Source of the DNA: a virus
Taxonomy: Duplodnaviria > Heunggongvirae > Uroviricota > Caudoviricetes
IMG/VR virus record: IMGVR_UViG_2675903278_000002
DNA: 64,000 bases
Strand: one strand, 5' to 3'
Shown here: piece by piece, positions 5,812-61,501 of the stretch
How the letters are laid out: every line of letters begins with the position of its first letter
Position numbering within the stretch: the first letter of the stretch is position 1
Program-made: the position numbers and the translations under genes
Notes under the pieces: model-generated
What the model was told of the DNA's origin: nothing
Database searches by the model: none
What the model saw: only the letters and a program-made list of their open reading frames with translations

Positions 5812-6333
5812 TTATTCTTCGAACAATTTTTCGATAGATTTTGTAGGATAGAACAAAGAACGCTCGTTGTTACCAACCAGCTGGATAAAGCCTAAACTTT
5901 TATAAAACGCCTTGGCTTTGTCATTTAACGCCTCAACGAAAAGTCCATGAATGCCTACAGCAAGAGATGCATTGTACACAACGCGCATTGCATGTGTTAC
6001 AAGCATTGAGCCAAATCCTTGACCTTGAAGGGACTTGTCCAAAGCCAGCCTACCCAAAGTAACACTTGGAACATTCCGATAAGGAACCTTCTTTTGTTTG
6101 CTTCTTGAAGGTAAGGACTCCTTTTCAAAACAACTACCTGACAAAGTGTAATATCCTAACACTTTTGGCCTTTCTTCTTGAGTGCAAAGCACATAAGCAC
6201 GAAGAATTTTTCCCTCATGCTGCCTTTTTAAGTGGTTGGCTAAAAAGGCGTTTAGTGACTCTTCGCCGCAATCAAAACCGTTTAGATCATAATCTTTCTC
6301 TCCAGAGAAAATCTCTATCGTTGTATTGCTCAC
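5812..6333 (-). CDS. GNAT-family N-acetyltransferase toxin (TacT-like)
   Basis: 173 aa; acetyltransferase-like core (QGQGFGSMLV, FY motif); directly downstream of and co-oriented with a DUF1778-like antitoxin gene. Confidence 0.7.
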   Translation of the reverse strand: MSNTTIEIFSGEKDYDLNGFDCGEESLNAFLANHLKRQHEGKILRAYVLCTQEERPKVLGYYTLSGSCFEKESLPSRSKQKKVPYRNVPSVTLGRLALDKSLQGQGFGSMLVTHAMRVVYNASLAVGIHGLFVEALNDKAKAFYKSLGFIQLVGNNERSLFYPTKSIEKLFEE

Positions 6334-6340
6334 GAGTAAA

Positions 6341-6610
6341 CTACTCCATGCTTTTCAGACGATCAGCAGCTCGTTTCAGCTTGTCGTTCGGTGCCGGAGG
6401 ATTGCTTATAGCGTCCATAACCAGATTCCAGGATTCTTCATTCAGAACTAGTCTACGGTGTTGCTCTATAACTTTCACGGCACGTTCAGATGCACTGCTA
6501 ACCATAAACTGAGTAATGCTCTGGTTAGACATTGCGGCAGCTTCCTCGATGATGCTTTTATCGTCATCGGTTAATCTCAAATCGATGCGCTGCTTTTTTA
6601 GTGCTGACAT
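6341..6610 (-). CDS. DUF1778 (TacA-like) ribbon-helix-helix antitoxin
   Basis: MSALKKQRIDLRLTDDDKSIIEEAAA... matches DUF1778 antitoxins; GGAGG RBS before the ATG at 6610; 7 nt gap to the toxin gene. Confidence 0.7.
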   Translation of the reverse strand: MSALKKQRIDLRLTDDDKSIIEEAAAMSNQSITQFMVSSASERAVKVIEQHRRLVLNEESWNLVMDAISNPPAPNDKLKRAADRLKSME

Positions 6611-6928
6611 GTATTCCTCCTGATGGCCGTGATGTAGGAAGGCCATCAATCTCCTCTGTTCAAACTGAGTTTTCGACTCAAAAATTACTTTAAAAGGCTA
6701 TAGCCCATTACGTGTGCATTATCAAATTGTGTACGGCATATCACCGTACTTGTAATATAGAGGTCATTGTTACTTTTTTCAACAGACAAATACAAGCTAT
6801 GATTGCCAATTGTTAATCACAACCTACCATTTAACCTTTACACCGCAGCCGTAGGCATTTAGGCTATATCACATATAAGAAAACAAGTTGTTTCAGACGA
6901 TAATTATATACGCAAAGGGAACTCTCCA

Positions 6929-7597
6929 ATGACCAAGATCTTTGTGGTTGGCGGCACAAAGGGCGGGCCTGGCAAATCCACCGTTGCCCAGCAAATTGCC
7001 GTTTGCCTGAAAGTCAAAAAGAAGAAGAAGGTTTATATTACCGATATAGATATTCAGCGCACGACAACGAGCTGGTGTGAAGACCGTCGACAGAACGAAG
7101 ACCTTGAGCTGATTCCTTTTGCATACGTTCAGGATGACATCATTAAGCACCTAAAATCGCTTCAGGGTAGAGCTGAGTTTGTAGTGGTAGATGCTGGTGG
7201 CTTCGACTCCGAAATTCAGCGACAAGCGATGCTGATGGCTGACGTTATCATTATCCCGCTGCGTCCTAAGCGTCGTGATTTGAAATCTTTACGTGACATC
7301 GATCCTATTATCGACAATGTTCGCAATGTAAACGATAAAGTGAAGGTCCGCGCGGTCATGAACCAGTGCCCGGCTTTGCCATCACAAGTGTCTCGCATTC
7401 TGGCGGCTAAAGAGATTGTTGAGACGTTTGGAATCGAGTCTGCGCCAGTCAATCTATATAACCGCAACGTCTATGATGATGCGGAAGAGTCTGGTCGTTC
7501 TATCTTTGAAATGACCGGTAGCGAGCGCGACAAAAAGGCGGAAGCCGAGTTTGAAGAATTTGTAGATTATCTGTTGAGTCTGGAGGAAGAAGAATAA
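6929..7597 (+). CDS. parA: ParA-family partition ATPase (small type Ib)
   Basis: Deviant Walker A GGTKGGPGKST; 222 aa; followed by a small RHH protein gene. Confidence 0.85.
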   Translation: MTKIFVVGGTKGGPGKSTVAQQIAVCLKVKKKKKVYITDIDIQRTTTSWCEDRRQNEDLELIPFAYVQDDIIKHLKSLQGRAEFVVVDAGGFDSEIQRQAMLMADVIIIPLRPKRRDLKSLRDIDPIIDNVRNVNDKVKVRAVMNQCPALPSQVSRILAAKEIVETFGIESAPVNLYNRNVYDDAEESGRSIFEMTGSERDKKAEAEFEEFVDYLLSLEEEE

Positions 7598-7956
7598 TGT
7601 CCATGAAAATGGGTGACCTAGCAAAGCGCAAAGAGCCTGATGCACCGGCTAAGAACACAACTCCTTTGCGCCAACCAGTCAGACCACAGGGACGCCCGAC
7701 TCGTGGCAAAGAGAAAATTAAAAGCCGCACAATGTCACTGGAGGACGAATACTTCGAACTGCTGGAGATGATGAAGTTCATCCCTCGCTTCGAGAAGTTC
7801 ACTCGTTCTGACGTGATTCGAGCAGCCATTTTCCATCTGGCAGAGAAGTCACCGCAGGAAATCGAGGACATCGTGAAATTGAATGAGGCGATCACCGCTG
7901 CCGATGTCACGATGCGTACCGATGAAATTAAACGCGAGTTGATGAAGAAAGGGTGA
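7597..7956 (+). CDS. Partition centromere-binding protein (ParG/ParB-like, ribbon-helix-helix)
   Basis: Start overlaps parA stop; basic disordered N-terminus plus C-terminal RHH-like segment MSLEDEYFELLEMM...RSDVIRAAIFHLAE. Confidence 0.5.
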   Translation: MSMKMGDLAKRKEPDAPAKNTTPLRQPVRPQGRPTRGKEKIKSRTMSLEDEYFELLEMMKFIPRFEKFTRSDVIRAAIFHLAEKSPQEIEDIVKLNEAITAADVTMRTDEIKRELMKKG

Positions 7957-8007
7957 TTATATTGGGCGTTTGTTACGCCCAATATATGAGTTGAAGGATA
8001 GACACCA

Positions 8008-9714
8008 ATGGAATCGATAGAAGTATTTTTAAAAAATTTTTTGGACTCAGATCATCGGGTTGCTGTCATAAAAGGAAATTGGGGAGTAGGTAAAACGCAT
8101 TATTGGAATAGCTTTTATACTAAACATTCTAAAAAATTAGATTTTAATGCATATTCATATGTTTCTTTGTTTGGAATAAATTCTATTGGAGACATTAAAA
8201 AAGCTCTTTATCATTGTGCCACACCAATTAATGAAAAGAAATATAAAGAACTGATTTTATCTGAAACGGATCGAACTATGATTCGTTATAGAAATGGGTT
8301 TTGGGGATGGTTGAAATACAACTCCTTGTCAAAATTTTTAATACATTTTGGAAAGAACGATTTTTTTGGGTTCAAAACTGATAATCTGCTGTCATCTCTT
8401 GAGTATAAATTTGTTAATAATTATTTGGTTTGCATTGATGATATTGAACGAAAAGGTAGTGCGCTAGAAATTAAAGAGATTATGGGGGTAATTGATGAGT
8501 TGGCAAGAAGAAAAAATTGCAAGGTTGTTCTAATATTAAATGAAGATAACTTACATGAAGAAACTGCACAACAACAGTTTTTAGAGTATAGAGAAAAAAT
8601 AATTGATGTGGAAATAAAATACGATCCCACGCCTGAGAAAAACTTAAGAAAAGTTTTTTATGAGACTGACCCTGATTTTCTTTTGTTAAAAAACCTAGTA
8701 AATGATTTAAACATCAAAAACATTAGAATATTAAATAAAATAAAATCATCTCTAGTTATATTTAGAGATGTGCTAAAGTTAGCAGAGGATAAGGTTAGAG
8801 AAAGTTTTATTAATAGATTGGTCTTATTTTCAGTGGTTTACTATTTTGGTGTTCCTAGCGTTGATTATGCTTCATTTAAGGAGTCAATCAAAAATATACA
8901 TGCATTCGACTATATGTTAGATGATAAAGATGAAAAGGAAGAAGTTAACTCTGTATATTCATTTGTTAATAGCCTTGATGTTATTTATGAACGAGCAGAA
9001 AGTGCTTTCGATGATGATATAGATTTTTACCTTAAGAACGGTTATGTTTCTTCTGAAAGCAATATTCTAAATATAATAAAAGAAAAAAATGAACAATATA
9101 GAGATAATAGGGTTTTATGTGAGGTTTATAAAATTTGGGATGTTTTTAGAAACTCTTTTAAAGATAATGAATCAGAGTTTATTTTTCAAATTGAGCGCGT
9201 AATTAACGATAGTCTGTTGCGTATACCAATTGGACAGTTCGTAGGTTTAATAAATGTCCTAATTAAATTGGATAGAGATTGTAATAATATTATAGAGGCA
9301 TATGCAGATGCTTTTGTTAATAAAGACAATGCGTATGCTACATTTAATTCTTTGCGAGTAGAGATCTTCGGAAATGAAGAATTAGGTTTCAGAATTGAAA
9401 AAAAATTGAAAGATAGAAATCCAGATGACTATAACTTAGATAAAATTATAAAAAAAATAGCTGGTGGAAGATTTAACCATAGTGATGTGAATATTCTTAA
9501 CAGTTTTTCTAAAGATGATTACGTAAACTGGATATTATCCTGTGATCAGGATGCTTTGAATTTAGTAGAAGAGACTATGCTCAAGTTCAAGGGTATGCAA
9601 CACCCGACAGACGAACAGAAGAGCATCACTGATAAAGCAATAGAAGCTTTGGAGGAAGTTGCTTCAAAATCAACACTTAATAAGCTGCGTGTTAATAAAA
9701 TACTCAATCATTAA
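8008..9714 (+). CDS. KAP-family P-loop NTPase
   Basis: Walker A GNWGVGKTHYW near the N-terminus, diagnostic of KAP NTPases; 568 aa; coding sequence visibly far more AT-rich than neighbours. Confidence 0.75.
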   Translation: MESIEVFLKNFLDSDHRVAVIKGNWGVGKTHYWNSFYTKHSKKLDFNAYSYVSLFGINSIGDIKKALYHCATPINEKKYKELILSETDRTMIRYRNGFWGWLKYNSLSKFLIHFGKNDFFGFKTDNLLSSLEYKFVNNYLVCIDDIERKGSALEIKEIMGVIDELARRKNCKVVLILNEDNLHEETAQQQFLEYREKIIDVEIKYDPTPEKNLRKVFYETDPDFLLLKNLVNDLNIKNIRILNKIKSSLVIFRDVLKLAEDKVRESFINRLVLFSVVYYFGVPSVDYASFKESIKNIHAFDYMLDDKDEKEEVNSVYSFVNSLDVIYERAESAFDDDIDFYLKNGYVSSESNILNIIKEKNEQYRDNRVLCEVYKIWDVFRNSFKDNESEFIFQIERVINDSLLRIPIGQFVGLINVLIKLDRDCNNIIEAYADAFVNKDNAYATFNSLRVEIFGNEELGFRIEKKLKDRNPDDYNLDKIIKKIAGGRFNHSDVNILNSFSKDDYVNWILSCDQDALNLVEETMLKFKGMQHPTDEQKSITDKAIEALEEVASKSTLNKLRVNKILNH

Positions 9715-9722
9715 TAGATTAT

Positions 9723-9789
9723 GACCTGCTTCCGTATGTATTTAATAAGTTACTTATTATTTGTATATACAGAAGCAGGTCTTTTAAAG
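9723..9789. terminator. Large hairpin (10 bp stem GACCTGCTTC/GAAGCAGGTC, AT-rich 39 nt loop) followed by TTTTAAAG; putative terminator; same stem sequence recurs at 56751..56815
   Basis: Inverted repeat read directly in sequence downstream of the KAP NTPase stop. Confidence 0.4.
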
Positions 9790-9895
9790 ACACCCACCAG
9801 AACAAGTCCCTTCCGTTTCCACTTCCAAAAACTGCCACCAGTCGCTATCATCCGCTCATTGTGATAAGTAAGTAACTACCTACCAGGTGAGCCAC

Positions 9896-10636
9896 ATGAG
9901 CCAAATCTTTTTCGATACCATCGACAACGACCAGTACGACTTCATGACAGAGTGGAATACCGCTGTTATGGACAAGTGGGTTGCTGAAAACATTGGTTTG
10001 TCGCGCTGCAAAGACGAGGCTGAACTGTTTGAGACGAAGTGGTTTGATTACCGCGATATGCATCCTCTCATGGCCACCTGTCTGTTTACGGAGGCATACA
10101 AACGTCAGTACTCAAATATCATGCTGACGCACGGTCGTGAACACTTTGAAACAGCTCCGTTCACCACCGGGTTAAAACGCTTGCCTTATCAGGAGTTGTC
10201 GACTGCTAATAAAACGTCGCTATGGAAAGCACGCCAGTTTGCGGATCGCTATTGCTGCTCATACGACTACTTTATCTCCACTGTTCTTTCCGCAGCTGCA
10301 CGACGTCTGTGGGACAAGCTGCCTCGCCCACAGCATTTGTGGCAGCCAGAACTGATTGAGATATTTGAAGAGAAATTAGCCAGACGCGCAACAACCCGTC
10401 TGGATGACTCTCTGGTTAGCTTTAAGCATATGGGAGACATGCAGTTCAACCCGATTCAGGAAAGCTATTTTGAGTGGATTCTGGAGCGTTTGCGCACCAT
10501 CCCTCGCAGCAAGCGCATACGCGCAATTTTCTCCGCTATCTGGCTAATGGAAATCGTTCCAGAGCGCCTTATTTCCGACCACTTTCCAGAAGAACTGGAA
10601 GAAGCACGGCGGTTTATTGATCCCCTATCTAATTAA
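9896..10636 (+). CDS. Hypothetical protein
   Basis: ORF 9887..10636; AGGTGA RBS-like sequence 5 nt before ATG 9896. Confidence 0.5.
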   Translation: MSQIFFDTIDNDQYDFMTEWNTAVMDKWVAENIGLSRCKDEAELFETKWFDYRDMHPLMATCLFTEAYKRQYSNIMLTHGREHFETAPFTTGLKRLPYQELSTANKTSLWKARQFADRYCCSYDYFISTVLSAAARRLWDKLPRPQHLWQPELIEIFEEKLARRATTRLDDSLVSFKHMGDMQFNPIQESYFEWILERLRTIPRSKRIRAIFSAIWLMEIVPERLISDHFPEELEEARRFIDPLSN

Positions 10637-10679
10637 CTAATACTAGAAAACAATTTGTTTAAAAAACAAAGGAAAGCAC

Positions 10680-12020
10680 ATGACCGAACTTTGCCATACA
10701 GGACGCGGGCTGTCCGAAGAGTTTGATGAAGATTTCCAGAACAGACTGACGGCATATTTTTGTCGTGATCACGAGTTTCTTACTCGTGCGGGAGATCTGG
10801 TTGTGCCTAGCCAATTTGCCAATGCGGCCAATGCCATATTGGTTAATATGGTTTCGGGCTATTACCGTATGTACAAGAGCGCGCCCTCTTCATCTGCAAT
10901 TCTGGATATGCTTAAGCGTGCGAAACGCGATAAGACTATCCGTGAGGAACTATTCGCCGATGTTGTTGCTGCGTTTAAGCGCATCCTTGCAGAAAAATTG
11001 TCCGATACCTCGTACATGGTTGACCAGGTATCAACCTTCGCAAAAAGCGTAGCGTTTGATGATGCTCTGATTAAGGCTGCTGAACTGAAAGAGAAGGGCG
11101 ACTTTCAGGGGGCGATGGCAATCATGGCCAAGGTTCAGCAGATTGGATCGAACGAAGCGACCGGAATCTATGACTACTACACCTCCGCAAGTGAGCGATT
11201 GAAAGCGCGTGAATATGAGGCTTCAGAGGAGTATGTACCAAACAGTATTACAACTGGACTCCCTCTTCTCGATAGGTTGCTGTACCAAAAAGGCTGGGCA
11301 AAGCGCGAAATGGTGCTCTTCATGGGGTTCGCTAAATCCGGTAAATCGACCGCAATGGGTGAGTTTTCCATAAACGCAACGCTTGCTGGCTACAATGTTC
11401 TGTATCTCTCGCTGGAGGTTCACACCAACATTTTGTCCGACCGTTTTGATGCAAGATTGTCGGAGACGGAAATGTCCAAGTTGGTGGAACGGCGCGATGA
11501 AGTTCATCGTAAGTTGGCAGAGTTGGGAGCCTCTAAGGGGATTGGTAGTTTGTGGGTTGTTGAGCGTCCGTCAGGAAGTATGTCACCGGCAGATCTGGAC
11601 CGTATGCTTAACAGCATGAAAGCCAACGGCATGGTGCCTGATATGGTTGTTGTCGACTACGCAGATTTGATGCGTGCCAGTTATGACCTTCGTGATGATC
11701 GCGCCAACATTCGTAGTATCTACACCGATTTACGTGCTCTTTATGACAAACATAACGTTGCTGGAATCACGGCATCGCAGACAAACCGTGAAGGTGGCGC
11801 GTCAGAAGTTGCCACAATGATGCACGCCGCCGATAACATCGAAAAAGTACGTATTGCTGACCTGGTAATAACGATCAACAAAACCGAAGAAGAAGAAGCG
11901 AAAGGAGAGGCTCGTCTCTACTTTGCTGGTTCACGTAACCAGCAGGGTGGGATCAGCATTCGCGTTAAACAAAACCTCGAACAAATGCGTTTCATTGAGC
12001 GAATCTTAGACGTTACCTAA
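10680..12020 (+). CDS. DnaB-like replicative DNA helicase
   Basis: Walker A GFAKSGKST in a RecA-like C-terminal domain; 446 aa; adjacent to primase. Confidence 0.8.
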   Translation: MTELCHTGRGLSEEFDEDFQNRLTAYFCRDHEFLTRAGDLVVPSQFANAANAILVNMVSGYYRMYKSAPSSSAILDMLKRAKRDKTIREELFADVVAAFKRILAEKLSDTSYMVDQVSTFAKSVAFDDALIKAAELKEKGDFQGAMAIMAKVQQIGSNEATGIYDYYTSASERLKAREYEASEEYVPNSITTGLPLLDRLLYQKGWAKREMVLFMGFAKSGKSTAMGEFSINATLAGYNVLYLSLEVHTNILSDRFDARLSETEMSKLVERRDEVHRKLAELGASKGIGSLWVVERPSGSMSPADLDRMLNSMKANGMVPDMVVVDYADLMRASYDLRDDRANIRSIYTDLRALYDKHNVAGITASQTNREGGASEVATMMHAADNIEKVRIADLVITINKTEEEEAKGEARLYFAGSRNQQGGISIRVKQNLEQMRFIERILDVT

Positions 12021-30232: not shown

Positions 30233-30503
30233 AGAATTATGGCGCTTGTTGAGGAAGTCACTCCTCTTACGCACTTTGTTTTGCCATGCCGGCAGTTAGC
30301 TTCTGCCTTTGACTATTCATGCGGCAACCCCGCATTTCGCCACAATGGGCAATTCACTTTTATGGAATAAACTGGCCGTTGTGTCGATTTAATTAGCATG
30401 GCCTTACCATGCTAATTTATTCAACTTGTACAATCCTGCAAATCTATCCACTCAGGCTTACACCGTCTTCGTTATTGTAGAAATGAGGATCATCAGCGTT
30501 GAA

Positions 30504-30719
30504 TCAGCTTAGAGCAACGACATTTGCTGCTGCTGGGCCTTTAGCCCCATTCTCGATAGAGAATTCGACCTGCTGGCCTTCTTCCAAAGTGCGGAAATTA
30601 TTACTCTGAATTGCCGAAAAATGTACAAAAACATCTTTACTGCCATCAGCAGGAGAAATAAAGCCAAAGCCTTTATCAGAGTTAAACCATTTTACTAAAC
30701 CAGTCATTTTATTAGACAT
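30504..30719 (-). CDS. cspA: Cold-shock protein (CspA family)
   Basis: [21 protein letters not shown]... RNP1-like motif; 71 aa from the internal ATG at 30719. Confidence 0.85.
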
Positions 30720-31048
30720 AGATATTACCTTCTTAATTTTGTGAGCCACATAGTGCGGCGAGAATTTGATCTGTATAGATTGGGACTTACTTAGGCACTT
30801 AAGGAGGAGACTCACGAAGAAGGGAAATCAGAAGATAACACTGAACTGAGACTGCTTTACTAAAACTGCTTACATAAGGTCTGTCTTGCAAACCAACGAT
30901 GCTATTAACGCATACCCCTTCTTTTCATGCAACCTTTATTTTTCAAAGATAACTAATTTTTGTCACCATTGGTTTAGTAAACGTTAACGAACCAGACGAT
31001 GCCAGACACCTTTACAGAGAACAGATGCCCGCCAATTGGCGGGCATCA

Positions 31049-54988: not shown

Positions 54989-55027
54989 AAAGCCTACTTT
55001 AAAAAGTTTAAAGTAGGCTTTCTTTTA
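54989..55027 (+). terminator. Rho-independent terminator
   Basis: AAGCCTACTTTAAA-AAG-TTTAAAGTAGGCTT followed by TCTTTT. Confidence 0.7.
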
Positions 55028-55142
55028 AAGAACAGTCGCCTTTCAATCATTTCCTGCCTGTATTTAATACTTTTCCGCCTGATAGGTTTAGTCAAAATGT
55101 AGCCATCGAAACGCAAATGTAACCAAACAGAAGGAGACTTAC

Positions 55143-55952
55143 ATGAGTTCGGTTGAAAATGTAATGACAAATGATGATCTGGACGAGCTGACAGCCATGT
55201 TGCAATCACTTGATGAACCAGTAAAAAAAGCTGCACAGGTTGAAAATACTGATGATATTGACGATCTGCTGCTCGGCCTAGATGCTGGCGTAGCCATGAG
55301 TTCTGATGATGTTGCCGAAGAACTGTTCAATGAAGAAAAAGCAGGTGATTTCAGCTCTGCTTTAAATGAGTTGGAGTTAGCGCATGAGCCTATAAACGTA
55401 ATTAACGCTGAAAGTGTTGAAGCTGCCGAAAACGAGCCAGAACAATTGGGATTTATTGAGGTTGAAGAGTGTGTTGAGGTTAATGATGAATTAAAAGTTC
55501 AACAGTCAAATGATAGCAATACAAATAAAAAAGCTCGTGCTGCAAGAGGTCCTCGTTTTACTTTAAGTGATAAAGATGATTCGTTTTTCAATAAAGCGGG
55601 CTTAGAAAAAGATATTTTCTTAGACGCTTACGATAACGCGCCTGTCAAAGCAAAGGATAAGATATTAAACCTTCTTAATTGGTTTAGCGGAGGTCCAGAT
55701 ATTAGTGTTTACACGGTAATTTCCATGAGACACCTTCTCACAGAAAAGAAGGCTACAAGTAATAGTATTAAGATTGCTTTAATGAGCAATCCAGAAAAAC
55801 CGTATCCGCTTAACACTGCGTCAACTCAGGCTGGGCAAATGATGGCTGTATTTCCAGCGACAGGAATTGCCGTTAGAGGCGGTGGAAATCTAACATTGAA
55901 CGAAGAATCACCGATCGTTAAGAAGTTTGTCGCGGAGTACACTATTGGATGA
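55143..55952 (+). CDS. Highly acidic hypothetical protein
   Basis: 269 aa, N-terminal half dominated by Asp/Glu. Confidence 0.45.
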   Translation: MSSVENVMTNDDLDELTAMLQSLDEPVKKAAQVENTDDIDDLLLGLDAGVAMSSDDVAEELFNEEKAGDFSSALNELELAHEPINVINAESVEAAENEPEQLGFIEVEECVEVNDELKVQQSNDSNTNKKARAARGPRFTLSDKDDSFFNKAGLEKDIFLDAYDNAPVKAKDKILNLLNWFSGGPDISVYTVISMRHLLTEKKATSNSIKIALMSNPEKPYPLNTASTQAGQMMAVFPATGIAVRGGGNLTLNEESPIVKKFVAEYTIG

Positions 55953-56135
55953 CGTTCCCCTACTGAAAATAAAGCCCATAGAGAGCTTTATAGTGCTGGG
56001 TAAGCCAATCACATACCCAGCACCACAAAAACGCGCCAGAGAGCTTCTCGTTTGCATTTCTGGCGCGTTTTATTTGATTGCCAGACATAAAATCAAATGC
56101 AAAAATAGGTATTTACTTACCTATCGAGAAAGAAG

Positions 56136-59977: not shown

Positions 59978-60547
59978 ATGTGCAAGAAATGCAAAGCGAT
60001 AGCTGATGAACAAAACGCCTTATTCGAAGAAATGGATGCTAATGAACTGGTCAAAATGTTAGCCATTCTTCGAGGAATAGAAGACGTTTCCATATTTGAG
60101 AGAGTGGTTACAGCACTTAATTTTGAGTCCACCTTTGAAGAGCCAACTCAGGTTGTAGCTTTAGCACATCATTTCGGTGTTCATTATCTTGCTGAAAAAG
60201 AGCGCGCTGATAAGTTGCAGGCGACTTTGGATATGGTGAGCGAGACTCAACGAACTGATGACACTAACAAGAGTGAGGCGATTATTGCCAGCAAAGATCG
60301 TGAAATTGCTGGGCTTAAATCCTCTCTAACGATGTTGATGTCTGCGTTCAATCTTATGTCTTCTCAGGCGGGTTATAAAATGCCATCACTAAACAGCGAT
60401 GATCCGATGGCCGTTCGTCAGCTTTTGGGAGCAATGGCCGACCAACTCGACGACACAAAGAGTCGGCTTGAAGACATGATGCGTGAGTTAAGCCATCGAC
60501 ATAACCTCGCAACACAGCCACACAAAGCCTTTCAAAGCTCTAATTGA
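59978..60547 (+). CDS. Hypothetical protein
   Basis: 189 aa ORF with GGAAAAACACATG start context. Confidence 0.5.
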   Translation: MCKKCKAIADEQNALFEEMDANELVKMLAILRGIEDVSIFERVVTALNFESTFEEPTQVVALAHHFGVHYLAEKERADKLQATLDMVSETQRTDDTNKSEAIIASKDREIAGLKSSLTMLMSAFNLMSSQAGYKMPSLNSDDPMAVRQLLGAMADQLDDTKSRLEDMMRELSHRHNLATQPHKAFQSSN

Positions 60548-60602
60548 TCTGATATGGCCGCATGATCGGCCATATTGTGTTGATAAAAAACAAGGATGAA
60601 AA

Positions 60603-60884
60603 ATGGCATACGGTACAGGGATTTACAACAATAAAGGAATTAACGTTACTGGCTTCCTTACTCCTATTTTTTTTCTTGATCGATTTACTGCGTCATCAGG
60701 CTCTAAGACGTACTCCAATCCGCCACCGGGTAAATCGCTACATGCCGTGTGGTCATTGATGCCTCTTAACAACGACAACTACATTAATTTACCTGTTCCA
60801 ACAGTTACTATTAATGGAAATACGGTTAGTTGGTCAAATTTATATACGGGGCTTGGTTCTTACATATACACATACTGGGGATAA
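60603..60884 (+). CDS. Hypothetical protein
   Basis: 93 aa ORF in an AT-rich segment. Confidence 0.35.
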   Translation: MAYGTGIYNNKGINVTGFLTPIFFLDRFTASSGSKTYSNPPPGKSLHAVWSLMPLNNDNYINLPVPTVTINGNTVSWSNLYTGLGSYIYTYWG

Positions 60885-60886
60885 TT

Positions 60887-61501
60887 ATGTTCGGGATGTC
60901 AATTACTCAATCAGATGGAAGTTTGTGGATGAGTCCAGAATTTACTCCGCAAAATCTGATTAATAAAGGGACAATGTCTACATCTAAAGGTTCTGTTTTT
61001 CAAACATCAATCCCATCAAACAAATCATGCTTTTTCTTCATAAAAAGCAGTAATAAGGCGAACATGATGTTTATTCATGAGCATAGTAACGGATACAATG
61101 CTCTCAGATTGCATCAGGTAAATGGTAGCCCCGGAACAATAACAGTTTATGCTTTTTCTGATATGGTGTTACCACATTCTGGCTATGGCATTGCCATGTA
61201 TAACAGCGCAGGCGCAATGGTGTATCACGGTGAGATGATGCCCCTTGATGCGAAACTTATCACTATTTCTGACCCTCAATTTACAATAGATATGGGGTAT
61301 CCATGTGCGGTAATGCCTGCTATGGTTGGGGTATATAACTATAGACGAACCGATTACGACAGACCTGTCTATGTAACAATGACAGGTGCAACTGGAAACC
61401 AAGTATATAACGGTCAATGGTATTCCGGTAATGTCACATGGGATATTAAGAAGATTTATACAAACAAAATTCTGGTGATAAATACCTCCAAGTATGATTA
61501 G
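60887..61501 (+). CDS. Hypothetical protein (possibly secreted or membrane)
   Basis: ORF 60830..61501; ATG 60887 follows a GGGGA RBS and the upstream stop; AT-rich. Confidence 0.4.
   Translation: MFGMSITQSDGSLWMSPEFTPQNLINKGTMSTSKGSVFQTSIPSNKSCFFFIKSSNKANMMFIHEHSNGYNALRLHQVNGSPGTITVYAFSDMVLPHSGYGIAMYNSAGAMVYHGEMMPLDAKLITISDPQFTIDMGYPCAVMPAMVGVYNYRRTDYDRPVYVTMTGATGNQVYNGQWYSGNVTWDIKKIYTNKILVINTSKYD

What the first reader, a model, noticed from the sequence alone, without database searches (positions are those of the whole stretch)
8008..9789. AT-rich KAP-family P-loop NTPase island between partition and replication modules: candidate defence or abortive-infection cargo
The 568 aa protein carries the KAP Walker A (GNWGVGKT). 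Its coding sequence is conspicuously AT-rich (runs of AAA/TTT and Asn/Lys/Ile codons) against a roughly 50% GC backbone, suggesting recent horizontal acquisition. It is a single-gene unit capped by a 10 bp-stem hairpin. KAP NTPases are repeatedly found in defence islands yet remain mechanistically poorly characterised, and no partner effector is visible here.
Basis: partly seen in the sequence, partly recalled or inferred. Interest (0 to 1): 0.8.

Follow-up and report, generated by a model that had tools for sequence, protein, structure and literature searches.

The report
KAP NTPase cargo in phage-plasmid hotspot
This is a real, intact single gene for a soluble KAP-type NTPase, sitting in a swap-in/swap-out slot of an SSU5-type phage-plasmid where relatives carry known anti-phage genes; it is very probably an untested anti-phage gene of a kind already described, not a new kind of system.

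Summary
ORF 8008-9714 (+) encodes 568 aa with Walker A GNWGVGKT and Walker B IDDIER. It passes the Pfam KAP_NTPase cut-off and is the most AT-rich stretch of the window (29% vs 46% GC).

Two inferences fail. The downstream hairpin is a backbone terminator present in every relative, including one with an empty slot. Low GC is a family trait in every host checked, so it does not show recent arrival.

The window is an E. coli SSU5-type phage-plasmid. Cargo inserts between the ParB-like stop codon (7956) and that terminator (9723). Of 264 complete E. coli genomes with this backbone, 28 carry a KAP gene there. Others carry PD-T4-3, DUF2971/PDC-S31, unknown genes or nothing.

Klebsiella and Salmonella relatives hold 39-43% identical KAPs in the same slot, while neighbouring genes are 82-93% identical. 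Distant homologs sit in the P2 gpA-gpQ defence hotspot (once beside PD-T4-10) and next to prophage repressors, always without a partner.

The model shows an AAA+/STAND-like NTPase plus a fast-diverging alpha-solenoid, with no membrane helix and no effector domain. The closest validated relative is Reve, a 586-aa, 30% GC KAP gene from P4 satellites that blocks Drexlerviridae.

Verdict: probable single-gene defence, a new member of a known kind.

The parts
6929..7597 (+). ParA partition ATPase (backbone; left neighbour; probable source of transcription into the slot)
   Evidence: NCBIfam ParA_partition E=1.9e-33. 82-91% aa identity to the Klebsiella and Salmonella phage-plasmid orthologs. The only + strand promoter-like sites upstream of the KAP gene lie at 6776-6830.
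7597..7956 (+). Small ParB-like / centromere-binding protein (119 aa, backbone); its stop codon is the left border of the cargo slot
   Evidence: phrog_5111 E=4.5e-80. Homology to relatives lacking KAP ends at 7952-7957. 92% aa identity across genera.
7958..9720 (+). Exchangeable cargo cassette (hairpin + RBS + KAP gene)
   Evidence: Absent from Cyrano, PhiR41_1, SSU5, pSLy3 and others, which carry different genes or nothing here. GC 0.297.
7958..7986 (+). Cassette-borne perfect 12-bp hairpin (TATATTGGGCGT ttgtt ACGCCCAATATA) directly after the ParB-like stop; likely attenuator or terminator of parAB read-through
   Evidence: dG -20.4 kcal/mol, z -4.6. The Klebsiella and Salmonella KAP cassettes and the GIY-YIG cassette each have a different GC-rich hairpin at the same place; the Klebsiella and Salmonella versions are followed by T-runs.
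8008..9714 (+). KAP-family P-loop NTPase gene, 568 aa, soluble
   Evidence: dN/dS 0.23 against allele B, so it is under purifying selection. No transmembrane segment.
8008..8778 (+). NTPase + lid module (aa 1-257), including Walker A (nt 8074-8097), Walker B (nt 8425-8451) and a low-confidence aromatic-rich insert (aa 98-125)
8779..9711 (+). C-terminal all-helical alpha-solenoid domain (aa 258-568); candidate specificity or sensor domain
9723..9785 (+).
   Evidence: Present in all 15 SSU5-type loci examined, including the empty slot L014. The right arm ACRGAAGCAGGTC followed by TTT(T) is invariant. Left-arm changes are mostly C-to-T, which gives G.U wobble only on the + strand RNA.
9887..10636 (+). 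Conserved 249-aa backbone gene (right neighbour), followed by DnaB-like helicase at 10680-12020
   Evidence: phrog_2500 E=7.4e-113. 85-89% aa identity across genera; DnaB 93%.

Best explanation
The gene is accessory anti-phage (or anti-mobile-element) cargo of an SSU5-type phage-plasmid, expressed while the element is maintained as a plasmid.

Shown: it sits in a cassette-exchange slot between the ParB-like stop codon and the parAB terminator. Related elements carry alternative defence genes there, or nothing.

Inferred expression: transcription comes from the parA promoter and reads through the cassette's own hairpin, which attenuates it. This would give low constitutive expression in the lysogen.

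Inferred mechanism: the protein is a soluble NTP-driven switch. The fast-diverging C-terminal alpha-solenoid binds a phage-encoded protein or complex. Binding triggers nucleotide-dependent oligomerisation of the AAA+/STAND-like KAP module, which has candidate sensor-1 N178, Arg-finger R195 and sensor-2 R240. NTP turnover, sequestration or remodelling of the bound phage complex then arrests phage development.

No nuclease, pore or other effector domain is present in cis. The block therefore rests either on the NTPase itself or on a host factor. Allelic replacement of the whole gene, and especially of its C-terminal half, changes which phages are recognised.
For: Slot variability: 264 of 5426 complete E. 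coli genomes carry the backbone, always on plasmids, and only 28 have KAP in the slot. Alternative occupants are PD-T4-3 (E=1.3e-23), DUF2971/PDC-S31 (E=3e-41 and 2e-33) and three unknown genes; one relative has an empty slot.

Same-slot divergence: KAP is 39-43% identical across genera while ParA, ParB, p249 and DnaB are 82-93% identical. Between two E. coli alleles the flanks are 97-100% identical but the gene shows dS 0.57 and dN/dS 0.23, and the C-terminal half is more diverged.

Independent defence contexts of homologs: the P2 gpA-gpQ hotspot, once directly beside a complete PD-T4-10 system (hotspot documented in PMC9122126). Also next to the S24 repressor of Pseudomonas prophages, and next to a serine recombinase (compare PMC12632615).

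The gene is always single, and family members are a uniform 540-600 aa.

Family links: PADLOC candidate PDC-S49 matches at E=1.5e-21, and 49 of 49 aligned homologs match it. The validated single-gene system Reve is a distant homolog with the same layout (hhalign probability 96.9%, E=1.7e-10 over NTPase+lid). It lowers plating of Drexlerviridae by 10^2 to 10^6.

Precedents: KAP defence proteins need Walker B (PMC12632615). Variable regions of the related NTPase Tmn act as sensors for a phage protein (10.64898/2026.03.01.708804).

Structure: NTPase plus solenoid with no transmembrane helix and no enzyme fold.
Against: This protein, and this clade, have never been tested experimentally. The PDC-S49 match is partial (51% of the profile), and PDC-S49 is itself only a candidate. 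Homology to Reve covers only the NTPase module.

DefenseFinder-based surveys of SSU5 phage-plasmids do not report the gene. No effector is recognisable, so the killing or blocking step is conjecture.

No promoter was found for the gene, so read-through expression is inferred. Hotspots can also hold anti-defence or other accessory genes. Three other occupants of this slot have no defence match.
Confidence: 0.7

Rival explanations
1. The gene serves the phage-plasmid itself and not host immunity. It could be a counter-defence factor, or a competition or exclusion factor aimed at related phage-plasmids and plasmids, such as an ATPase that binds and disables a host defence complex or a rival's replication or partition machinery.
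For: Hotspots of mobile elements mix defence and anti-defence genes, and SSU5 phage-plasmids carry anti-defence genes such as Rad. A solenoid plus NTPase suits binding or remodelling of protein complexes. The gene sits between the partition and replication modules.
Against: Homologs occur as lone chromosomal genes outside any mobile element, for example in Pragia. They also sit beside prophage repressors, where lysogen-expressed exclusion genes are typical. The nearest validated relative, Reve, is a defence gene. The other identifiable occupants of the slot are defence genes or defence candidates.
Confidence: 0.12
2. The gene is a replication or partition accessory ATPase of the plasmid state: an initiator, loader or target-selector-like AAA+ protein that works with the adjacent DnaB and primase module.
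For: The best structural matches are Cdc6/ORC, TnsC, MuB and DnaA-type AAA+ modules. The gene lies immediately upstream of the replication genes.
Against: About 89% of E. coli backbones lack it and replicate normally; the slot can be empty or hold a nuclease gene on the opposite strand. No winged-helix or DNA-binding domain is present; the C-terminus is a solenoid. Homologs occur in P2-like and lambdoid-type prophages and in chromosomes with unrelated replication systems. Reve shows the same ORC-like Foldseek hits and is a defence gene.
Confidence: 0.05
3. The gene is silent or decaying foreign DNA: an AT-rich hitch-hiker repressed by H-NS, with no current function in this element.
For: The extreme AT-richness is typical of H-NS targets in enterobacteria (established knowledge). 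No dedicated promoter was found. A strong hairpin stands between parB and the gene.
Against: The ORF is intact in hundreds of contigs, with dN/dS 0.23 and all catalytic residues invariant across 49 diverse homologs. The ribosome-binding site is well placed. The family has 1656 clusters at 50% identity with a uniform full-length architecture.
Confidence: 0.05

Closest known systems
Reve (single-gene system from P4-satellite hotspots; preprint 10.64898/2026.02.27.708500)
   Same: Single gene on an E. coli mobile-element hotspot. 586 aa against 568 aa, 29.7% against 29.4% GC. Walker A (GEWGVGKT against GNWGVGKT) at the extreme N-terminus, and Walker B DDLER against DDIER. Shared motifs YxSxxGxNSLxDxK, EKVxxxEI and NIRxxN. 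Foldseek best hits to the ORC ATPase module and an HHpred/Pfam KAP assignment. A long C-terminal region of about 330 aa with no annotated domain; Reve's C-terminus was not modelled here. hhalign probability 96.9%, E=1.7e-10 over the NTPase+lid. Both match PDC-S49 partially.
   Different: Only about 25% identity, confined to aa 17-244. The C-terminal halves do not align, so target specificity cannot be transferred. Reve is carried by P4 satellites and this gene by an SSU5 phage-plasmid. Reve has been shown to block Drexlerviridae; this gene is untested.
PDC-S49 (PADLOC phage-defence candidate, single gene)
   Same: It is the only PADLOC family matched, by the window protein (E=1.5e-21) and by all 49 aligned homologs plus 10 spread representatives. 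Similar length (profiles 619-629 positions) and a single-gene KAP architecture.
   Different: The match covers only profile positions 8-323 of 624 and never gets stronger than about 1e-29 anywhere in the family. This makes it a sister clade and not PDC-S49 proper. PDC-S49 is a computational candidate, and no paper in the library names it.
PifA (F plasmid, T7 exclusion), the founding bacterial KAP protein
   Same: A plasmid-borne single KAP NTPase that excludes a phage. It is reported to lack transmembrane helices.
   Different: The window protein has no PifA HMM match; one of 49 homologs matches weakly at E=2.4e-4. PifA is reported to cause membrane damage and abortive infection, and nothing here indicates a membrane association.
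EF_KAP and metagenomic KAP-effector fusions (RADS preprint, PMC12632615)
   Same: A KAP NTPase followed by about 320 aa with no known domain. Single-gene protection that depends on Walker B. One homolog here also neighbours a serine recombinase.
   Different: EF_KAP has two N-terminal transmembrane helices and comes from Firmicutes. This protein is soluble and begins directly with the P-loop strand.
[quoted passage not shown]
   Same: A single-gene NTPase defence with a solenoid-like architecture. Its variable regions sense a phage protein (RIIB) and ATP turnover is part of the response.
   Different: Tmn has two transmembrane helices inside the P-loop domain, forms a membrane decamer and exports Mg2+. 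There is no tmn HMM match and no transmembrane segment here.
STAND/Avs and AAA+ initiator-clade ATPases (Cdc6/ORC, TnsC, RdrA)
   Different: There is no N-terminal effector domain as in Avs, no winged-helix domain as in Cdc6/ORC, and no partner such as RdrB. The Pfam nSTAND3 match is below its cut-off at 19.6 against 27.2 bits.

Membership tests
KAP family P-loop NTPase (Pfam PF07693) | Match to the family HMM above the curated gathering score | tested here: met
   25.8 bits against a cut-off of 20, E=7.7e-6, aa 18-258. PF07693 is precomputed for nearly all of the 120 listed homologs.
KAP family P-loop NTPase (Pfam PF07693) | Walker A GxxGxGK[TS] and Walker B hhhhDD(L/I)(D/E)R | tested here: met
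   GNWGVGKT at aa 23-30 and LVCIDDIER at aa 140-148. G23 G26 G28 K29 T30 D144 D145 E147 R148 are invariant in 49 homologs.
KAP family P-loop NTPase (Pfam PF07693) | Transmembrane helices associated with the NTPase domain (typical of many members, though PifA is reported to lack them) | tested here: not met
   The highest 19-residue Kyte-Doolittle mean is 1.6, at aa 403-421, which lies in modelled helical segments (H388-405, H408-420) of the C-terminal domain. No homolog in A1 exceeds 1.6. Where an insert might sit, aa 98-125 form a low-confidence aromatic-rich loop. This feature is not universal in the family, so its absence does not exclude membership.
KAP family P-loop NTPase (Pfam PF07693) | Alpha-helical or superhelical extension C-terminal to the NTPase | tested here: met
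PDC-S49 (PADLOC candidate) | Full-length match to a PDC-S49 HMM | tested here: inconclusive
   E=1.5e-21, but only profile positions 8-323 of 624 and protein aa 3-324 of 568 are covered. The same moderate, partial pattern holds across the whole family. PADLOC's own coverage rules could not be applied.
Reve | Sequence homology over the full length to the validated protein | tested here: not met
   Homology covers only the NTPase+lid (window aa 17-244 to Reve aa 20-226, 25% identity, hhalign E=1.7e-10). The C-terminal halves do not align. It is a related clade with the same design, not the same family.
Tmn / PifA / QatA (KAP-like proteins of named defence systems) | Match to the system's HMM in PADLOC-DB | tested here: not met
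   No such hit at E<=1 for the window protein. One weak PifA hit (2.4e-4) among 49 homologs.
STAND NTPases (Avs-like) | STAND NTPase HMM above threshold, with an effector-NTPase-sensor tripartite architecture | tested here: not met
   nSTAND3 scores 19.6 bits, below its cut-off of 27.2. There is no N-terminal effector, since Walker A starts at residue 23. Only the NTPase-plus-repeat-sensor logic is shared.
Mobile-element defence-hotspot cargo | A variable locus bounded by conserved core genes, holding validated defence systems in some relatives | tested here: met
   Sharp borders at 7957 and 9718-9724. Occupants include PD-T4-3, PDC-S31/DUF2971, unknown genes, or nothing. 28 of 264 backbones carry KAP. 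Homologs sit in the P2 gpA-gpQ hotspot beside PD-T4-10.
Anti-phage defence system (functional definition) | Reduces phage plating or propagation when expressed | not testable with these tools
   This needs cloning and phage challenge. Only the distant relative Reve has such data.

The most novel reading that the evidence does not exclude
The protein could be a self-contained, effector-less immune factor. On this reading, a soluble KAP NTPase with an ORC/TnsC-like core uses its alpha-solenoid, and possibly the aromatic/basic insert at aa 76-125, to load onto a phage replication or packaging complex or onto phage DNA. It then polymerises in an NTP-dependent way and blocks the phage by sequestration, without killing the cell. 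The exchangeable C-terminal half would work as a plug-in specificity module swapped between phage-plasmids. That would be a restriction-factor-like mode of immunity not yet described for bacterial KAP or STAND-type NTPases.
Probability: 0.15. Interest if true: 0.7.

Novelty: new member of a known kind. Interest (0 to 1): 0.45.

Why it matters
If confirmed, this adds a large and uniformly built family to the anti-phage repertoire: 1,656 clusters at 50% identity, covered by PHROG 4740 and missed by NCBIfam and by the published DefenseFinder screens. It would also define a previously undescribed defence hotspot in SSU5-type phage-plasmids, located between the ParB-like stop codon and the parAB terminator.

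These elements are common in E. coli, Klebsiella, Salmonella and Shigella sonnei, including lineages of clinical concern. A published survey found 'no defence systems' in some of those groups. A resident KAP gene could therefore affect phage-therapy host range and competition between mobile elements.

The two natural E. coli alleles have a 90% identical NTPase and a 66% identical C-terminus on near-identical backbones. That is a ready-made experiment for mapping the specificity determinants of KAP-type sensors.

Tried and rejected
- Insertion scars: I looked for direct or inverted repeats, att sites or an integrase flanking the cassette. Only chance-level short repeats turned up. Exchange is therefore most likely by homologous recombination in the conserved flanks.
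- Rfam scan of 6500-10800: only sub-threshold noise.
- Promoter scan: no + strand promoter between parA and the KAP start.
- PDB sequence search with the family profile: no hits.
- NCBIfam: no family.
- Replication-initiator reading, suggested by the Cdc6/ORC hits: rejected because the gene is dispensable and patchily distributed.
- 'Recent acquisition' from low GC: rejected.
- Literature: 'PDC-S49' is named in no paper, and the original KAP family paper is not held.
- Link between allele B and the S. sonnei pWPMR2 phage-plasmid: could not be verified because no accession was available.
- hmmsearch of the family profile against Reve with default filters: found nothing because of the bias filter. 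It succeeded with the filters off.
Full report
**1. The observation**

The window has an ATG-initiated ORF at 8008..9714 (+) of 568 aa. An AAGGA ribosome-binding site lies 9 nt upstream. Residues 23-30 read GNWGVGKT and residues 140-148 read LVCIDDIER.

Pfam KAP_NTPase is matched above its gathering score: 25.8 against 20 bits, aa 18-258. The gene is 29.4% GC (GC3 23.6%), while both flanks are 48% (GC3 50%). It is the lowest 1707-bp window in the 64 kb, about five standard deviations below the mean.

A long hairpin follows at 9723-9781, with a 10-bp perfect outer stem, dG -28.3 kcal/mol and z -7.6. The factual observation is therefore confirmed.

**2. What the element is**

Megablast identifies the window as an E. 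coli SSU5-type phage-plasmid. It is 98.6% identical to phage Cyrano in the shared parts and 82% identical to Salmonella phage SSU5.

The local gene order is lysis genes, a GNAT toxin-antitoxin pair, ParA, a small ParB-like gene, the KAP gene, a conserved 249-aa gene, a DnaB-like helicase and a primase.

**3. Borders of the unit**

Homology to relatives that lack the gene (Cyrano, PhiR41_1, SSU5) stops at 7952-7957, one base after the ParB-like stop codon. It resumes at 9718-9724, the first base of the downstream hairpin.

That hairpin is present in all 15 SSU5-type loci examined, including a relative whose slot is empty (L014, 28 nt between the stop codon and the hairpin). Its right arm ACRGAAGCAGGTC is invariant and followed by a T-tract. 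Most left-arm differences are C-to-T changes, which keep G.U pairing only in the + strand RNA.

It is therefore the intrinsic terminator of the parAB transcript and a backbone feature. It is not a cap of the KAP unit.

The cassette proper is 7958..~9720. It carries its own perfect 12-bp hairpin at 7958-7986 (dG -20.4 kcal/mol). The Klebsiella and Salmonella KAP cassettes and the GIY-YIG cassette each carry a different GC-rich hairpin at the same position, and the Klebsiella and Salmonella versions are followed by T-runs.

No + strand promoter-like site lies between the parA promoter region (6776-6830) and the KAP start. I therefore infer attenuated read-through from parAB. This step is not shown.

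**4. The slot is a hotspot**

The backbone segment 7000-10700 occurs in 264 of 5426 complete E. coli genomes, always on plasmids. Only 28 of them (10.6%) cover the KAP part.

Other occupants of the slot are:
- a 255-aa LEM-3-like GIY-YIG protein that matches PD-T4-3 (E=1.3e-23);
- DUF2971 proteins that match candidate PDC-S31 (E=3e-41 in Cyrano, 2e-33 in SSU5);
- three unrelated proteins with no match;
- IS1, or nothing at all.

The published DefenseFinder survey of SSU5 phage-plasmids also reports PD-T4-3 in E. coli and Shigella elements. It does not mention the KAP gene.

**5. Not a recent arrival**

KAP homologs at 39% (Klebsiella) and 43% (Salmonella) identity occupy exactly the same slot. 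The neighbouring ParA, ParB-like, 249-aa and DnaB proteins are 82-93% identical.

In E. coli and Shigella a second allele (564 aa, 77% identical) is more common than the window's allele. PLSDB holds 19 records of the second allele against 4 of the first, and one allele-B protein (P0007) alone is recorded on 928 contigs.

Between the two alleles the flanks are 97-100% identical. The gene itself has dS 0.57, dN 0.13 and dN/dS 0.23. One fully identical patch (aa 61-120) points to intragenic recombination.

Every family member examined has lower GC than its surroundings:

| Host | KAP gene | Surroundings |
|---|---|---|
| Klebsiella | 0.31 | 0.52 |
| Salmonella | 0.30 | 0.52 |
| Pragia | 0.27 | 0.44 |
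| Oleispira | 0.35 | 0.40 |
| Pseudomonas | 0.41 | 0.54 |

Low GC is thus a property of the family. The pattern is long-term residence with allelic exchange under purifying selection.

**6. Contexts elsewhere**

The family is large: 1656 clusters at 50% identity with E<=1e-30, nearly all 540-600 aa. PHROG 4740 (unknown function) covers the protein end to end.

The gene is always single. Contexts found:
- a lone insertion among housekeeping genes in Pragia, and beside IS66 in Oleispira;
- directly adjacent to the S24 cI-like repressor in five Pseudomonas-type prophages;
- beside a serine recombinase in L037;
- between gpA and the portal gene gpQ in two P2-like phages.

The gpA-gpQ position is the old/tin locus, shown to be an anti-phage hotspot (PMC9122126). 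In L031 the KAP gene there lies immediately after a complete PD-T4-10 system (A 4e-74, B 1.7e-168).

**7. The protein**

The AlphaFold2 model is confident (pLDDT 85.3). It shows an N-terminal alpha/beta NTPase with a helical lid (aa 1-257) and an all-helical C-terminal domain (aa 258-568; separate model pLDDT 89).

Invariant residues across 49 homologs are concentrated in the NTPase: Walker A, Walker B, R195-E196-K197 and N238/R240. N178 is nearly invariant (at least 90%). The C-terminal half is the more variable, at 66% against 90% identity between E. coli alleles and 32-37% against 47-49% across genera.

This is the layout of an NTP-driven switch with a variable protein-binding sensor and no cis effector.

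**8. Comparison with what is known**

PADLOC returns only the candidate family PDC-S49. The match is partial (E=1.5e-21, 51% of the profile) for this protein and for every homolog tested, so PDC-S49 is a sister clade. No PifA, Tmn or QatA model matches the window protein.

KAP-type defence has several precedents:
- PifA;
- Tmn, a YobI-family membrane decamer that senses T2 RIIB and exports Mg2+ (10.64898/2026.03.01.708804);
- EF_KAP and three metagenomic KAP fusions that need Walker B (PMC12632615).

The closest validated analogue is Reve, a single-gene system from P4-satellite hotspots (10.64898/2026.02.27.708500). From the deposited sequence, Reve is 586 aa and 29.7% GC, with GEWGVGKT at aa 26-33 and IIDDLER as Walker B.

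Reve aligns to the family profile over the whole NTPase+lid: hhalign probability 96.9%, E=1.7e-10, 193 columns, 25% identity, with shared family motifs. It also hits PDC-S49 partially. Its C-terminal half does not align.

Reve lowers plating of all seven Drexlerviridae tested by 10^2 to 10^6 and has no effect on other phage families. I inferred that pFD425 is Reve from the order of constructs in the supplement.

**9. Verdict**

The gene is most likely a single-gene anti-phage or anti-mobile-element cargo gene (confidence about 0.7). The mechanistic details are inferred.

It is a new member of a known kind, namely soluble KAP-type single-gene defence (Reve, PDC-S49). What is new here is:
- the definition of the SSU5 hotspot and its borders;
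- the reassignment of the hairpin to the backbone;
- the finding that low GC is a family trait;
- the natural allele pair that isolates the C-terminal domain as the probable specificity module.

The rival readings are an element-serving counter-defence or competition factor, a replication accessory, or silent DNA. They are less likely for the reasons given under each.

Noticed in passing
window 5812-6649 (- strand): A GNAT-type toxin (173 aa) and a TacA/RHH-type antitoxin (102 aa) occupy a second variable slot between the lysis genes and parA. Cyrano annotates the toxin as KacT, and homologous genes carry Pfam Acetyltransf/TacA1 hits. SSU5, PhiR41_1 and the Klebsiella and Salmonella relatives carry two unrelated genes there instead, with no PADLOC match. 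parAB is therefore flanked by two cargo slots.
   Followed up: partly
window 9723-9785 and all SSU5-type loci (L001-L007, L012-L015, L022, L025, L029, L040): The long palindrome with an AT-rich inner stem is conserved across genera, and its arm differences are G.U wobbles specific to the + strand. I read it as the parAB terminator. A second role, such as a centromere or a recombination site for cassette exchange, was not excluded.
   Followed up: partly
window 7597-7956: The 119-aa gene after parA is annotated as a 'RelE/ParE putative toxin' in phage Cyrano. By position it behaves as the partition adaptor, it is 92% conserved across genera, and it gives only a weak RHH-type (aCcr1) hit. The toxin annotation is probably wrong.
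   Followed up: partly
window 8188-8367 (KAP aa 61-120): This patch is 100% identical in protein (dS 0.13) between alleles A and B, inside a gene that otherwise has dS 0.3-1.7. It suggests a recent intragenic recombination tract.
   Followed up: no
L031 4042-7617: In a P2-like prophage the gpA-gpQ hotspot holds PD-T4-10_A, PD-T4-10_B and the KAP homolog in tandem on one strand. In L032 the same hotspot holds the KAP homolog alone.
   Followed up: yes
Allele B protein P0007 (L040-L042) and Shigella sonnei contigs: The 564-aa allele B is indexed in 1142 blocks of the assembly collection and is named from Shigella sonnei records. A survey reports that the pWPMR2-like phage-plasmids of XDR S. sonnei carry 'no detected defence systems'. 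If those elements carry allele B, a probable defence gene is being overlooked. I could not verify the link.
   Followed up: partly
window 8299-8382 (KAP aa 98-125): A low-confidence, aromatic-rich loop (FWGWLKYNSLSKFLIHFGKNDFFGFKTD) lies between Walker A and Walker B, roughly where membrane-bound relatives carry transmembrane inserts. It could be a vestigial or amphipathic membrane-contact element, or an ISM-like insertion.
   Followed up: no
window 19001-19500, 30501-31000, 55001-56000, 60501-61500: These are other, milder GC dips (0.386-0.40) in the window. They may mark further accessory genes and were not examined.
   Followed up: no
L013 1218-2291 (-), L015 1196-1873 (-), L002 4329-5373 (+): Three further occupants of the same slot are 357 aa, 225 aa, and the SSU5_035/036 pair. 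None matches Pfam or PADLOC. By position they are additional candidate defence or anti-defence genes.
   Followed up: partly
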